In this document: one piece after another, positions 1,616 to 5,388 of the stretch
How positions within the stretch are numbered: position 1 is the stretch's first letter
Layout of the letters: each line of letters starts with the position of its first letter
Virus record (IMG/VR): IMGVR_UViG_2734482554_000005
Length of the DNA stretch: 5,388 nucleotides
Reading direction: 5' to 3' (one strand)
From: a virus
Taxonomy: Duplodnaviria; Heunggongvirae; Uroviricota; Caudoviricetes
The notes under the pieces: model-generated
Database searches by the model: none
Seen by the model: only the letters and a program-made list of their open reading frames with translations
What the model was told of the DNA's origin: nothing
Position numbers and translations under genes: made by a program

Positions 1616-1881
1616 NNNNNNNNNNNNNNNNNNNNNNNNNNNNNNNNNNNNNNNNNNNNNNNNNNNNNNNNNNNNNNNNNNNNNNNNNNNNNNNNNNNNN
1701 NNNNNNNNNNNNNNNNNNNNNNNNNNNNNNNNNNNNNNNNNNNNNNNNNNNNNNNNNNNNNNNNNNNNNNNNNNNNNNNNNNNNNNNNNNNNNNNNNNNN
1801 NNNNNNNNNNNNNNNNNNNNNNNNNNNNNNNNNNNNNNNNNNNNNNNNNNNNNNNNNNNNNNNNNNNNNNNNNNNNNNNNN
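1616..1881. other. Assembly gap (266 N); nothing can be read here
   Basis: Continuous run of n from 1616 to 1881. True length and content unknown. ORF-track frames crossing it (X runs) are not interpretable. Confidence 0.99.
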
Positions 1882-2227: not shown

Positions 2228-3957
2228 GCCGGAAATCTTACCCCAACGTAAATGCTGCAAATCAGTATGCCCGGGATGTCGTGCGCGGAAAGATTGTTGC
2301 CTGCCAGTTTGTGATTCAGGCCTGCCAGCGCCATCTTGATGACCTGATGGCGGAAAAAAGTAAGTCGTTTCGTTACCGCTTCGACAAGGACCTGGCTGAA
2401 CGGGCCGCGAAATTTATTCAGCTGTTGCCGCACACCAAGGGGGAGTGGGCATTCAAACGGATGCCCATCACGCTGGAGCCGTGGCAGCTATTTGTGATCT
2501 GCTGTGCGTTTGGCTGGGTCAATAAAGGCACCCGGTTGCGCCGCTTCCGGGAGGTGTACACCGAAATCCCCCGTAAGAACGGCAAATCAGCAATCTCTGC
2601 CGGTGTTGCCCTGTATTGTTTTGCCTGTGATAACGAGTTTGGCGCGGAAGTGTATTCCGGTGCCACGACAGAGAAACAGGCGTGGGAAGTCTTTCGCCCG
2701 GCGCGACTGATGTGTAAACGCACACCCATGCTGACGGAAGCGTTCGGGATTGAGGTTAACGCCTCAAACATGAACCGTCCGGAGGATGGCGCGCGGTTTG
2801 AACCGCTGATCGGCAACCCAGGTGATGGTTCATCACCCCACTGTGCCGTGGTTGATGAATATCACGAGCATGCCACCGATGCGCTTTATACCACAATGCT
2901 TACCGGGATGGGGGCGCGACGTCAGCCACTGATGTGGGCCATCACCACCGCCGGGTACAACATTGAGGGGCCGTGCTACGACAAGCGGCGGGAAGTCATC
3001 GAGATGCTCAACGGCTCGGTGCCTAACGATGAACTGTTCGGGATCATCTATACCGTTGATGAAGGTGACGACTGGACCGGCCCGCAGGTGCTGGAAAAAG
3101 CCAATCCAAATATTGGCGTGTCGGTTTATCGCGAATTTTTGTTAAGTCAGCAGCAGCGTGCGAAAAATAACGCCCGTCTGGCAAACGTCTTTAAAACAAA
3201 ACACCTCAATATCTGGGTGTCGGCGCGTTCGGCGTATTTCAACTTGGTGAGCTGGCAGAGCTGCGAGGATAAATCACTGACCCTTGAGCAGTTCGAGGGG
3301 CAGCCGTGCATTCTGGCCTTTGACCTGGCGCGTAAGCTGGATATGAACAGCATGGCGCGACTTTATACCCGCGAGATTGACGGTAAAACGCATTACTACA
3401 GTGTGGCCCCGCGTTTCTGGGTACCGTATGACACGGTGTACAGCGTCGAGAAAAATGAAGATCGACGGACAGCCGAACGCTTTCAGAAATGGGTGGAAAT
3501 GGGCGTTCTGACCGTTACCGATGGTGCGGAGGTGGATTATCGCTACATCCTCGAGGAGGCCAAAGCGGCGAACAAAATCAGCCCGGTCAGTGAGTCACCC
3601 ATCGACCCCTTCGGGGCGACCGGGTTGTCACATGACCTTGCTGATGAAGACCTGAATCCCGTCACTATCGTCCAGAACTTCACCAATATGTCCGATCCGA
3701 TGAAAGAGCTGGAAGCAGCGATTGAATCGGGACGTTTTCATCATGACGGCAATCCCATCATGACCTGGTGTATCGGCAACGTGGTCGGCAAAAACATGCC
3801 GGGTAACGATGATGTGGTGAAACCCGTCAAAGAGCAGGCGGAAAACAAAATCGATGGTGCAGTTGCGCTGATTATGGCGGTTGGCAGAGCCATGCTGTAC
3901 GAGAAAGAAGACACGCTGTCTGACCACATTGAGTCCTACGGGATCCGCTCGCTTTAA
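2224..3957 (+). CDS. Terminase large subunit (ATPase + nuclease), HK97-like
   Basis: 577-aa ORF. Walker A-like P-loop (EIPRKNGKS), Walker B-like hhhhDE (AVVDEYHE), and a C-terminal RNase H-like nuclease region with conserved acidic residues ([11 protein letters not shown]…[12 protein letters not shown]). ATGA-coupled to the small subunit. Position and size fit a packaging ATPase. Confidence 0.93.
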
Positions 3958-3968
3958 CTGAGGTAATT

Positions 3969-4151
3969 ATGATCATGCTGATTCTCGCGCCTCTGGTGGG
4001 CGTGCTGGGTGCGCTTTTGCTGGCGTATGGTGCCTGGCTGATTTATCCCCCGGCGGGTTTTGTTGTTGCCGGGGCGCTGTGCCTGTTCTGGTCGTGGCTG
4101 GTGGCGCGATATCTCGACCGTACACGGCAGTCTGTCGGCGGAGGTAAATAG
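3969..4151 (+). CDS. Hypothetical small membrane protein (60 aa, two predicted TM helices), function unknown
   Basis: SD GAGGT (3960-3964) just upstream of ATG 3969, with a second in-frame ATG at 3975. Almost entirely hydrophobic ([49 protein letters not shown]) with a short basic tail ([11 protein letters not shown]). Stop TAG 4149-4151 overlaps the presumed portal GTG by 1 nt. No family recognised, so this could be a real small protein or a chance ORF. Confidence 0.5.
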
Positions 4152-5307
4152 TGTTCTTTTCGGGATTATTTCAACGAAAAAGCGATGTGCCGGTGACCAC
4201 GCCAGCAGAACTGCTGATGCTATCGGGCTGTCATACGACACCTATACCGGAAAGCGGATCAGTAGCCAGCGGGCCATGCGCCTGACGGCGGTCTATTCTT
4301 GCGTCAGGGTGCTGGCAGAGTCTGTTGGTATGCTGCCCTGCAGTCTCTACAAAATCAGCGGTACCCTGAAAACACGGGCGGTGGATGAACGACTGCATAA
4401 GTTGGTTTCGGCAAAACCTAATGGCTACATGACACCGCAGGAATTCTGGGAGCTGGTTATTGTCTGCCTGTGTCTACGGGGGAATTTTTACGCCTACAAG
4501 GTAAAGGCACTGGGAGAAGTGGTGGAGCTTCTTCCGATAGATCCGGGCTGTGTGGAACCGAAGCTGAACAGCCAGTGGCAGCCGGTTTATCAGGTGACGT
4601 TTCCGGATGGTTCCGTGGATGTGTTGACCCAGAATGAAATCTGGCATGTGCGCACCCTGACGCTGGATGGACTTGTCGGGCTGAATCCCATTGCGTATGC
4701 GCGTGAGGCCATTTCACTGGCAGCGGCAACCGAGGAGCACGGTGCCAGGTTGTTTAGTAATGGTGCGGTGACATCCGGTGTGTTGCGTACGGAACAAAAG
4801 CTCACGCCGGATGCTTACGAGCGTCTGAAGAAAGATTTTGAGGAGTGTCACACGGGGCTTGGCAATGCTCACCGCCCGATGATTCTGGAAATGGGGCTGG
4901 ACTGGAAGTCGATGGCGCTGAACGCCGAGGACAGTCAGTTCCTGGAAACCCGCAAGTTTCAGCTGGAAGAAATCTGTCGTCTGTTCCGGGTGCCGTTGCA
5001 CATGGTGCAGAACACCGATCGCGCCACCTTCAACAATATCGAAGAGCTGGGGCTGGGATTTATCAACTATTCACTGGTGCCGTATCTGACCCGCATCGAA
5101 CAGCGGATCAACACCGGACTGGTACGAAAAAGTAAGCAGGGCGTTTATTACGCCAAATTTAACGCCGGGGCGTTACTGCGCGGGGATATGAAGTCCCGTT
5201 TTGAAGCCTACGCCACCGGGATCAACTGGGGAATTTACTCTTCCAATGACTGCCGCGACCTGGAAGATATGAATCCGCGTCCCGGTGGTGTAATGCCGAT
5301 CAGTTAA
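4151..5307 (+). CDS. Portal protein (HK97-family), apparently frameshifted near the 5' end in this sequence
   Basis: The body of the protein (from ~4270 to stop TAA 5305-5307; …AMRLTAVYSCVRVLAESVGMLP…NPIAYAREAISLAAATEEHGARLF…) looks like an HK97-type portal. The likely true start is GTG 4151 with a strong SD GGAGGT (4140-4145, 5-nt spacer), encoding MFFSGLFQRKSDVPVTTPAELLMLSG…, which resembles HK97-type portal N-termini as I recall them. That frame hits TGA at 4283-4285, and the rest of the gene is in another frame. The track's 4060 start lies inside the upstream ORF and its first ~70 residues are not portal-like. Confidence 0.8.
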
Positions 5308-5339
5308 GGATCAGTTGACCGATCCAGTGGCTGTGTAAG

Positions 5340-5374
5340 AATCCGGAAACGCTCACTTGTTTCCGGATTTTTTT
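5340..5374 (+). terminator. Rho-independent terminator (11-bp stem, 8-nt loop, T-tract)
   Basis: AATCCGGAAAC (5340-5350), loop GCTCACTT, GTTTCCGGATT (5359-5369) is a perfect inverted repeat, followed by TTTTT (5370-5374). Orientation fits termination of + strand transcripts; the reverse strand lacks a matching U-tract. Confidence 0.75.
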
Positions 5375-5388
5375 ATGCACATTGGACA

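What the first reader, a model, noticed from the sequence alone, without database searches (positions are those of the whole stretch)
5308..5388. Strong intrinsic terminator directly after portal, where a head operon should continue
A perfect 11-bp stem plus T-tract begins 33 nt after the portal stop. In HK97-type operons portal is followed closely by the prohead protease/scaffold and capsid genes in one transcript. A strong terminator here suggests either an attenuator that lowers expression of downstream genes, or a module boundary or truncation point of a defective prophage. A small GGATC…GATCC hairpin with two Dam sites precedes it at 5308-5325. An ATG at 5376 follows the T-tract without a recognisable SD.
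Basis: seen in the sequence. Interest (0 to 1): 0.4.

Follow-up and report, generated by a model that had tools for sequence, protein, structure and literature searches.

The report
IS4 insertion sequence end, not phage terminator
The "terminator after the portal gene" is the first 98 bases of the well-known insertion sequence IS4, which has cut off a decaying prophage in Shigella sonnei, and the hairpin is IS4's own conserved structure just upstream of its transposase gene.

Summary
The hairpin is real: an 11-bp perfect stem at 5340-5350/5359-5369, an 8-nt loop and a T7 run, seen in 0 of 300 shuffles. It is not part of a phage head operon. Portal homology stops at 5290. Window 5291-5388 is 100% identical to the left end of IS4. 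The portal "stop" (5305-5307) lies inside the IS4 terminal inverted repeat, and the ATG (5375, not 5376) starts the IS4 transposase InsG.

The window is 100% identical to Shigella sonnei chromosomes. There IS4 is followed directly by chromosomal genes, with no portal 3' end, protease or capsid. The portal also carries a frameshift, so this is a prophage remnant.

The hairpin is a conserved feature of IS4-type elements. It is present in all 34 relatives examined (transposase identity 56-100%). Covariation is strong: 98% of cells pair and 10 of 11 pairs show double changes. A conserved promoter-like -10 overlaps the foot of the stem.

The most likely function is to terminate and translationally silence transcripts that enter from outside. 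The element's own transcript is predicted to start inside the left arm and escape.

The finding is ordinary. By-products: IS4 also has an inward-facing terminator at its right end, and IS4 relatives insert preferentially into host terminators.

The parts
4151..5290 (+). Portal pseudogene of an SfIV/ST64B-type (HK97-like) prophage. It has a GTG start at 4151 and a 1-nt deletion near 4212 that shifts the frame at about codon 21. It is cut at codon ~380 of 413 by IS4.
   Evidence: tblastn with the SfIV and MSI001 portals: residues 1-21 fall in one frame (4151-4213) and residues 5-380 in another (4162-5289). The alignment shows the 1-nt gap. Portal homology ends at 5290.
5291..5388 (+). First 98 bp of insertion sequence IS4 (left end), cut by the end of the window.
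   Evidence: 100% identity to IS4 in LR595863 (H20). The full IS4 there is 1426 bp, L002 2006-3431. The same junction is present in S. sonnei chromosomes, which carry IS4 at L087 13068-14493.
5291..5308 (+). IS4 left terminal inverted repeat, TAATGCCGATCAGTTAAG. It contains one GATC (5298-5301) and the TAA (5305-5307) that ends the truncated portal reading frame.
   Evidence: Comparison with the right end, which reads TAATGCCAGTCAGTTAAG inward, gives 16 of 18 matches. The sequence fits the subgroup IS4 end signature -AATR--------WTW in Table 1 of PMC2266710. The translation ends ...PGGVMPIS*.
5309..5324 (.). Two GATC (Dam) sites, 5309-5312 and 5321-5324, bracketing the -35 hexamer.
   Evidence: Read from the sequence. 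GATC sites lie at the same three positions (about -77, -66 and -54 from the ATG) in most IS4-like relatives, and in L061, L081 and L082, whose transposases are only 56-58% identical.
5315..5342 (+). Predicted sigma-70 promoter of the transposase gene: -35 TTGACC (5315-5320), a 16-nt spacer, TG (5334-5335), and -10 AAGAAT (5337-5342). The predicted start is near 5349.
   Evidence: The consensus scan scores 9 of 12 matches plus TG. In 24 of 30 relatives the best promoter-like match lies in the same register: -35 near -60, a 16-nt spacer and -10 near -38. The A at -10 position 2 is invariant in 27 of 27 sequences and the T at position 6 is present in 26 of 27. The start site is inferred, not mapped.
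5340..5374 (+). Conserved hairpin (arms 5340-5350 and 5359-5369, loop 5351-5358) plus T-run (5368-5374). It is terminator-like and ends directly at the transposase start codon.
   Evidence: Searches cover this copy. A strong hairpin is present in 34 of 34 relatives and a T-run of 5 or more in 30 of 34. Covariation on a structure-blind alignment: 98.3% of cells pair, against 77.6% in shuffles and 28-58% in slid controls, and 10 of 11 pairs show double changes.
5375..5388 (+). Start of the IS4 transposase gene insG (MHIGQ...), cut by the end of the window.
   Evidence: The ATG and N-terminus align with InsG in L002. The ATG sits directly after the T-run in the relatives. The full 442-aa product, with Pfam Nterm_IS4 and DDE_Tnp_1, follows at the same place in S. 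sonnei (L087 13152-14480).

Best explanation
Window 5291-5388 is the left end of IS4. The element is inserted at codon ~380 of the portal gene of a decaying SfIV/ST64B-type prophage in Shigella sonnei, and the rest of the prophage is missing beyond it. The hairpin and T-run belong to IS4. They lie between its terminal inverted repeat and its transposase start codon.

Proposed mechanism; the anatomy is shown and the function is inferred. A transcript that enters IS4 from outside, here from the portal gene, contains both arms of the hairpin. It either terminates at the U-run just before the AUG, or, if it reads through, has the weak ribosome-binding GGA (5365-5367) locked in the stem.

The element's own promoter has its -10 hexamer on the 5' foot of the stem. 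The predicted start, near 5349, falls at the end of the left arm. The native mRNA therefore lacks the left arm, cannot form the hairpin, and can be translated.

GATC sites in the terminal repeat and on both sides of the -35 suggest additional Dam-methylation control, as in IS10 and IS50. This last point rests on analogy only.
For: Identity and context:
- Portal homology ends at 5290, and 5286/5287-5388 is 98-100% identical to IS4.
- The IS4 boundary is TAATGCC at 5291.
- The window is 100% identical to S. sonnei chromosomes including CP000038.1, where a 1426-bp IS4 follows.
- Nothing resembling the portal 3' end, protease or capsid lies within about 8 kb downstream.

Structure:
- The hairpin occurs in 34 of 34 relatives, with z from -2.6 to -8.4.
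- 98.3% of cells pair and 10 of 11 pairs carry compensatory changes. 0 of 500 shuffles reach the observed values, and the slid controls fall to 28-58%.
- RNAalifold independently predicts the same helix.

Terminator character:
- 30 of 34 relatives have a T-run of 5-8 abutting the ATG.
- The reverse strand lacks a comparable T-run in IS4.

Promoter interlock:
- The best promoter-like match lies in the same register in 24 of 30 relatives.
- The two key -10 positions are the most conserved columns.

Ribosome-binding site accessibility:
- Mean probability unpaired for -12..+3 is 0.64 in the predicted native transcript and 0.23 in a read-through transcript. The native value is higher in 21 of 21 relatives.

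Precedent:
- Terminators upstream of transposase genes are a described class, said to prevent expression when an IS sits in a transcribed region (PMC2965389).
- The IS200 left-end terminator protects against impinging transcription (PMC4513863).

Other end of IS4:
- Term-seq in E. coli K-12 maps a 3' end directly after the T-run that follows the right-end hairpin, read inward (PMC7815308 supplementary file 1).
- That structure is present in all 19 distinct right ends examined.
Against: - No transcription start or 3' end has been mapped at the IS4 left end. The K-12 Term-seq rows retrieved list no insG-labelled 3' end there and none in that coordinate range. This may only mean that little transcription enters that end in K-12.
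- The promoter is a consensus match of moderate quality (9 of 12). In 6 of 30 relatives the best match lies elsewhere.
- The accessibility contrast follows partly by construction once the start site is assumed.
- Three Halomonas relatives keep the hairpin but have no T-run, so termination cannot be the only selected function.
- This IS4 copy has no target duplication, so the present junction reflects a later rearrangement or deletion, not a simple insertion.
Confidence: 0.75

Rival explanations
1. The hairpin is a phage-encoded terminator or attenuator between portal and protease. It would tune expression of the head genes or mark a phage module boundary.
For: It lies just after the stop of a portal-like reading frame and looks like a strong intrinsic terminator.
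Against: - The sequence from 5291 is IS4, not phage DNA.
- Intact relatives have no intergenic space here. In SfIV the portal (locus 2251-3492) overlaps the protease gene (3434-4120), and E. coli MSI001 is arranged the same way.
- The same hairpin sits in front of IS4 transposase genes in unrelated genomic contexts in many genera.
- From established knowledge of lambdoid phages, late transcription modified by the Q antiterminator ignores intrinsic terminators. A Q gene (Pfam Phage_antitermQ) lies upstream in the source genome.
Confidence: 0.01
2. The hairpin works only or mainly at the level of translation, by hiding the ribosome-binding site and start codon. It causes no significant termination, and the T-run serves as an unstructured, U-rich translation leader.
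For: Three Halomonas relatives (L064, L068, L074) keep a strong hairpin with no T-run, and in them the start codon itself is paired. The GGA/GGG in the right arm lies 7-10 nt before the ATG in all relatives. Accessibility of the initiation region drops from 0.64 to 0.23 when the left arm is present.
Against: A run of 6-8 T directly after a GC-containing stem is kept in 27 of 34 relatives, and a run of 5 or more in 30 of 34. That is the signature of an intrinsic terminator. The analogous structure at the other IS4 end coincides with a mapped 3' end in vivo.
Confidence: 0.15
3. The main selected role of the end hairpins is to replace the host terminator that the element destroys when it inserts. 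This would insulate neighbouring genes, lower the cost of insertion, and only secondarily shield the transposase gene.
For: Reconstructed empty sites of IS4 relatives are terminator-like in 24 of 42 cases, against 1 of 420 control windows. Inward-facing terminator-like structures exist at both ends. The right-end one has a mapped 3' end in K-12.
Against: This reading is compatible with the best explanation and is not exclusive of it. It does not explain why the left hairpin is interlocked with the promoter and abuts the start codon. The S. sonnei copy is not in a terminator-like site.
Confidence: 0.3
4. The inverted repeat acts as DNA: a binding site for transposase or a host protein, or a cruciform used during transposition.
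For: It lies within 80 bp of the IS end, a region where subterminal binding sites occur in other elements. This rests on general knowledge and was not tested here.
Against: The stem sequence changes freely while pairing is kept. That fits a folded nucleic acid and not a sequence-specific protein site. The conserved T-run on one strand only and the fixed contact with the ATG point to an RNA-level role.
Confidence: 0.05

Closest known systems
IS4 of Escherichia coli / Shigella (transposase InsG; IS4 family, subgroup IS4)
   Same: The window's 98 nt are 100% identical to IS4. They share the same terminal repeat and the same transposase start. In the source genome the full element is 1426 bp and encodes the 442-aa DDE transposase.
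   Different: This copy has no target-site duplication, and its right-hand neighbour is chromosomal DNA and not the rest of the portal gene. In Ss046-type genomes the IS4 is itself split by an IS3-family element.
[quoted passage not shown]
   Same: [quoted passage not shown]
   Different: IS200 uses two separate hairpins, and its start site (about nt 40) lies downstream of the terminator. In IS4 a single hairpin would do both jobs, and the -10 element overlaps its 5' foot. No antisense RNA was looked for here.
IS10 / IS50 protection from external promoters (fold-back inhibition) and Dam control
   Same: The logic is the same: only read-through transcripts carry the 5' segment that pairs with the initiation region, because the native start lies inside it. 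GATC sites lie in the promoter and the terminal repeat. Davis, Simons and Kleckner 1985 is reference 59 of PMC2965389. The details given here come from my own knowledge.
   Different: As I recall it, those elements have no U-run terminator at this position. Dam dependence of IS4 was not tested here, and I found no report of it.
'Mobile attenuators', class 1 (terminators upstream of transposase genes; Naville and Gautheret 2010)
   Same: [quoted passage not shown]
   Different: The families named in that passage are ISBma2, IS3/IS2/IS600/IS1329/IS407A and ISL3. IS4 is not among them.
Portal-protease junction of HK97-like prophages (SfIV, SfII, ST64B, E. coli e14-like)
   Same: The window up to 5290 is 97-99% identical to these portal genes over their last 390 nt.
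   Different: In those phages the portal runs about 100 nt further and overlaps the protease gene. There is no hairpin and no intergenic region.

Membership tests
IS4 (insertion sequence, IS4 family, subgroup IS4) | Nucleotide identity to the reference element from its terminal base inward | tested here: met
   Window 5286/5287-5388 is 98-100% identical to annotated IS4 copies. The boundary TAATGCC at 5291 was fixed by alignment with an IS4 flanked by a duplication.
IS4 (insertion sequence, IS4 family, subgroup IS4) | Terminal inverted repeats with the subgroup signature -AATR--------WTW | tested here: met
   TAATGCCGATCAGTTAAG fits the signature in Table 1 of PMC2266710. The left and right ends match at 16 of 18 positions.
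IS4 (insertion sequence, IS4 family, subgroup IS4) | A single transposase ORF of the DDE type in an element of 1400-1650 bp | tested here: met
   Only 14 nt of the gene lie in the window. In S. sonnei genomes identical to the window, a 442-aa product with Pfam Nterm_IS4 and DDE_Tnp_1 follows in a 1426-bp element.
IS4 (insertion sequence, IS4 family, subgroup IS4) | A 10-13 bp direct repeat of the target flanking the element (the sign of a simple insertion) | tested here: not met
   The left flank is ...CCCGGTGGTG. The right flank is CAGCCCTTGAGC... or GCTCATTGAGCA..., depending on the strain. This speaks to the history of this copy (later deletion or rearrangement), not to its identity.
Intrinsic (Rho-independent) terminator | A stable GC-containing stem with a short loop, immediately followed by a U-run | tested here: met
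   An 11-bp stem with 5 G:C pairs, an 8-nt loop, dG -15.5 kcal/mol and a T7 run.
Intrinsic (Rho-independent) terminator | RNA 3' ends map in the U-run in vivo or in vitro | not testable with these tools
   No 3' end data exist for the left end. The published K-12 Term-seq tables list only the right-end site.
IS-borne protection against external transcription (IS10/IS50 fold-back, IS200 terminator) | The structure lies between the IS end and the transposase start, and is conserved by selection | tested here: met
   It is present in 34 of 34 relatives, with compensatory changes in 10 of 11 pairs.
IS-borne protection against external transcription (IS10/IS50 fold-back, IS200 terminator) | The native transcript starts inside or beyond the 5' arm, so only read-in transcripts form the structure | tested here: inconclusive
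   The promoter-like -35/-10 lies in a fixed register, with the -10 on the stem's 5' foot, in 24 of 30 relatives. The predicted start is near 5349. No experimental start site is available.
IS-borne protection against external transcription (IS10/IS50 fold-back, IS200 terminator) | Transposase expression from external promoters is reduced by the structure | not testable with these tools
   This needs reporter fusions. Only a computed accessibility contrast is available (0.64 against 0.23).
   SfIV and E. coli MSI001 have overlapping portal and protease genes and no such sequence.

The most novel reading that the evidence does not exclude
IS4-subgroup elements may be 'terminator-swapping' insertion sequences. 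They insert into the apex of host intrinsic terminators, and they carry inward-facing terminators at both ends. These would restore termination for the flanking genes and shield the transposase gene. The left terminator is interlocked with the transposase promoter, so that only the element's own transcript escapes and is translated. In the papers I could search, I found the target-arm specificity described but not the terminator reading, nor the conserved, covarying left-end hairpin.
Probability: 0.45. Interest if true: 0.45.

Novelty: already known. Interest (0 to 1): 0.2.

Why it matters
For the scan, this removes a false lead. An apparent regulatory terminator in a phage head operon is the edge of a common insertion sequence at what looks like an assembly break, in a prophage remnant that is already present in public Shigella sonnei genomes.

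It also shows a useful check: a stop codon, a hairpin and an ATG that appear right where homology to relatives ends should be tested for a mobile-element boundary.

The by-products have modest general interest. They give comparative support for how IS4-type elements insulate their transposase gene from outside transcription. They also suggest that these elements prefer host terminators as targets while bringing terminators of their own.

Tried and rejected
- The consensus terminator scan missed the hairpin. I treated this as a limit of the scan after direct folding and counting.
- No complete E. coli genome contains this portal-IS4 junction. The best whole-window matches there are only about 93% identical.
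- An exact junction search in metagenome contigs found nothing.
- Rfam has no family over the IS4 region.
- Literature searches for an explicit description of the IS4 left-end hairpin, promoter or Dam control found none. The Mahillon and Chandler review was not held. The SspA/CRISPR paper mentions insG only in another context.
- The K-12 Term-seq rows retrieved list no insG-labelled 3' end at the IS4 left end and none in that coordinate range.
- I did not adopt the reading of GGATC...GATCC (5308-5325) as a structural mini-hairpin. The MFE fold does not use it. Its 5-bp arms never vary among the relatives that have it, so they carry no covariation information. The bases between them change without compensation. 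The motif is absent in distant relatives that keep the large hairpin. Dam sites bracketing the -35 hexamer are the more economical reading.
- The ORF 4060-5307 with a TTG start is not the portal gene's true extent. The real start is the GTG at 4151, in another frame.

Full report
**1. Observation**

The features are in the sequence. AATCCGGAAAC (5340-5350) pairs perfectly with GTTTCCGGATT (5359-5369) across an 8-nt loop. A run of seven T (5368-5374) follows, and an ATG at 5375-5377 comes directly after it.

- The region folds far better than shuffles: z = -4.9, with 0 of 200 shuffles as good.
- The core hairpin has dG -15.5 kcal/mol.
- It is the only perfect hairpin of 9 bp or more in the window. 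In dinucleotide shuffles, 5 of 300 contained any stem of 11 bp or more, and 0 of 300 contained one followed by a T-run.
- The simple terminator scan did not list it. My reading, not tested, is that A:T pairs flanking the stem let the scan extend the stem into the T-run.
- Corrections: the ATG is at 5375, not 5376. There are three GATC sites, not two: 5298-5301, 5309-5312 and 5321-5324.

**2. What it is**

Homology to portal genes of SfIV, SfII, ST64B and related HK97-like prophages is 97-99% up to window 5290 and stops there. From 5286/5287 to 5388 the window is 98-100% identical to DNA annotated as IS4, transposase InsG.

I aligned the window with an IS4 copy that is flanked by a target duplication in a lambda-like phage record. 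This fixes the IS4 boundary at TAATGCC, window 5291, and shows that the element is 1426 bp long.

- The TAA that ends the portal reading frame (5305-5307) lies inside the IS4 terminal inverted repeat. The last residues of that frame (...VMPIS*) are encoded by IS4.
- The ATG at 5375 is the start of InsG (MHIGQ...).
- In intact relatives the portal continues for about 100 nt and overlaps the prohead protease gene, and the capsid gene follows. There is no intergenic region and no hairpin.

**3. Source and downstream sequence**

The exact large-terminase protein of the window is encoded on Shigella sonnei chromosomes, including CP000038.1. It is also found on thousands of contigs of 2-10 kb.

The window is 100% identical to these chromosomes, apart from a run of 266 N at 1616-1881.

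- In some genomes (L087, L088, L089) a complete IS4 follows the portal. Chromosomal genes come next (Pfam Ribosomal_S30AE, PheL, chorismate mutase/prephenate dehydratase).
- In others (L084, L085, L086, L090, L091) the IS4 is itself split near its nt 1120 by an IS3-family element. Chromosomal genes follow there too (BamE, an SMC_N protein, NAD kinase, GrpE).
- Neither arrangement has a target duplication. Neither has any trace of the portal 3' end, protease or capsid within about 8 kb.
- The portal also carries a 1-nt deletion near 4212, which shifts the frame at about codon 21.

This is therefore a prophage remnant cut off at an IS4.

The window ends 98 nt into a repeated element, and most contigs carrying this segment are 2-10 kb. 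That suggests an assembly break in the IS. This point is inference.

**4. The hairpin as a feature of IS4-type elements**

I collected 80 loci that encode InsG relatives, 56-100% identical in protein, from many genera. I then read the 100 nt upstream of each start codon.

- All 34 distinct upstream regions fold into a strong hairpin that ends at or just before the ATG, with z from -2.6 to -8.4.
- 30 of 34 have a run of 5-8 T between the stem and the ATG.
- The stem sequences differ. Examples are AATCCAGAAAC/GTTTCTGGATT, TTCCGGTATCAG/CTGATACCGGA and AATCTGAGTTC/GAACTCGGATT.

On a MAFFT alignment that knows nothing of structure, the 11 pairs of the IS4 stem score as follows:

| Measure | Value |
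|---|---|
| Cells forming a standard pair, observed | 98.3% |
| Cells forming a standard pair, column shuffles | 77.6% |
| Cells forming a standard pair, partner slid by 1-3 columns | 28-58% |
| Pairs showing changes on both sides | 10 of 11 |
| Shuffles reaching the observed values | 0 of 500 |

RNAalifold predicts the same helix on its own. The sequences are related, so the shuffle counts are not probabilities. The slid controls and the many independent pair types still make a selected helix the only reasonable reading.

**5. Promoter interlock**

The consensus scan finds TTGACC (5315-5320), a 16-nt spacer and AAGAAT (5337-5342) preceded by TG.

- In 24 of 30 relatives, the best promoter-like match in the whole 100-nt upstream region lies in the same register. 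The -35 is near -60, the spacer is 16 nt, and the -10 is near -38, although the hexamers differ.
- The -10 hexamer sits on the 5' foot of the stem.
- Its two critical positions, A at position 2 and T at position 6, are the best-conserved columns of the alignment: 27 of 27 and 26 of 27.
- A start about 7 nt after the hexamer falls near 5349, at the end of the left arm.
- With that start, the region from -12 to +3 is mostly unpaired in the native transcript (mean 0.64). It is mostly paired in a transcript that begins 100 nt upstream (mean 0.23). This holds in 21 of 21 relatives.

This contrast is partly built into the assumption about the start site. What the data add is that a conserved promoter-like signal sits exactly where that assumption needs it.

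**6. Mechanism proposed**

Shown by the data:
- the identity of the sequence as the IS4 left end;
- a conserved, covarying helix;
- a conserved T-run that abuts the start codon;
- a conserved promoter-like signal overlapping the 5' foot of the stem.

Inferred:
- Transcripts that read in from outside form the helix. They either terminate at the U-run or have the weak GGA ribosome-binding site sequestered.
- The native transcript starts inside the left arm and escapes.

Three Halomonas relatives keep a GC-rich helix with no T-run, and in them the start codon itself is paired. Translational occlusion must therefore be part of the function, and in those elements probably all of it.

GATC sites lie in the terminal repeat and on both sides of the -35. 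They recur at the same positions in relatives whose transposases are only 56-58% identical. By analogy with IS10 and IS50, this suggests Dam control, which was not tested.

In the S. sonnei remnant, any transcription from the phage late region would run into this structure. From established knowledge of lambdoid phages, Q-modified polymerase ignores intrinsic terminators.

**7. Comparison with what is known**

- IS4 itself is a long-known element.
- Terminators upstream of transposase genes are a described class, said to prevent expression when the IS lies in a transcribed region (PMC2965389).
- IS200 has a left-end terminator against impinging transcription and a separate stem-loop that hides its Shine-Dalgarno sequence (PMC4513863).
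- IS10 and IS50 use fold-back structures that only read-in transcripts can form (cited; the details are from my own knowledge).
- IS4 would combine these in a single hairpin that is interlocked with its promoter.
- I found no curated RNA family for this region. I found no paper that describes this for IS4.

**8. By-products**

The right end of IS4:
- The terminal repeat itself is the 5' arm of a hairpin, GCCAGTCAGTT/AACTGACTGGC, and a T-rich run follows it when read inward.
- This holds in all 19 distinct right ends examined.
- Published Term-seq data for E. coli K-12 list a 3' end at 4502127(+), antisense to insG. From the layout of the table it falls directly after that T-run.
- IS4 thus appears to have inward-facing terminators at both ends, one of them with experimental support.

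Target sites:
- I reconstructed the empty target sites of 42 distinct insertions of IS4 and its relatives. Most are textbook intrinsic terminators: an A-run, a GC stem, a loop, the other stem arm and a T-run. The 11-14 bp duplication covers the apex.
- 24 of 42 pass strict criteria, against 1 of 420 control windows from the same loci.
- A published survey noted striking specificity in the target arms of subgroup IS4 but did not call them terminators.
- The S. sonnei portal site is not terminator-like.

**9. Verdict**

The object is the left end of IS4, which is already known and already present in public genomes.

Interest in the finding as given is low. The comparative picture of IS4-type ends is a modest lead worth a bench test: a covarying left-end hairpin interlocked with the promoter, terminators at both ends, and terminator targets.

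Noticed in passing
L004-L083, both flanks of the IS4-type element in each locus: Reconstructed empty target sites of IS4 and its relatives are mostly intrinsic-terminator-like hairpins (A-run, GC stem, loop, stem, T-run), with the 11-14 bp duplication at the apex. 24 of 42 pass strict criteria, against 1 of 420 control windows. The published description mentions target-arm specificity but not terminators.
   Followed up: partly
L002 3385-3431, L087 about 14450-14493, and the right ends of 19 relatives: The right terminal repeat of IS4 is itself the 5' arm of a hairpin followed by a T-rich run when read inward. This holds in all 19 distinct right ends examined. K-12 Term-seq maps a 3' end directly after it, at 4502127(+), antisense to insG.
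   Followed up: partly
window 1616-1881: A run of 266 N replaces 232 nt of the complete S. sonnei genomes, covering the intergenic region and the start of the small terminase gene. The listed ORF 1574-2227 runs through these N and is not a real extent.
   Followed up: yes
window 4151-4285, near 4212: The portal gene has a 1-nt deletion relative to its relatives. Its true GTG start at 4151 is therefore out of frame with the body of the gene, and the long ORF starting at TTG 4060 is an artefact of the other frame. Whether this is a real mutation or an assembly error was not resolved, but the complete S. sonnei genomes are identical to the window there.
   Followed up: partly
L084, L085, L086, L090, L091, about 14190-15520: In Ss046-type S. 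sonnei genomes the IS4 next to the portal is itself split near IS4 nt 1118-1123 by an IS3-family element about 1.3 kb long.
   Followed up: no
L087/L088/L089 from 14494; L085/L091 from 15830: Two different right-hand neighbours of this IS4 occur among S. sonnei genomes: the ribosomal S30AE/pheL/pheA side and the bamE/SMC-type/NAD kinase/grpE side. Neither has a target duplication, which points to IS-mediated rearrangement.
   Followed up: no
L064, L068, L074 (Halomonas), 50 nt upstream of the transposase ATG: These relatives keep a stronger, GC-rich hairpin but have no T-run, and the start codon itself is paired. This looks like a translation-only variant of the left-end structure.
   Followed up: no
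L021 (Phytobacter sp.), positions 1-90: The left end of an IS4 copy is replaced by unrelated sequence that carries its own terminator-like hairpin (GCCACCTGC...GCAGGTGG, then a T-run). The transposase start codon reads ACG, so this copy is probably dead.
   Followed up: no
left flanks of E. coli/Shigella IS4 copies: window 5278-5290, L002 1992-2005, L007, L011, L012, L016: Several target duplications of E. coli and Shigella IS4 copies begin with C and end in GGTG next to the left end. Examples are CTGCCGACCGGTG, CAGCATTCTGGTG and CTCCCCCGGTG. Here the flank reads ...GTCCCGGTGGTG. This suggests a sequence preference inside the duplicated segment.
   Followed up: no
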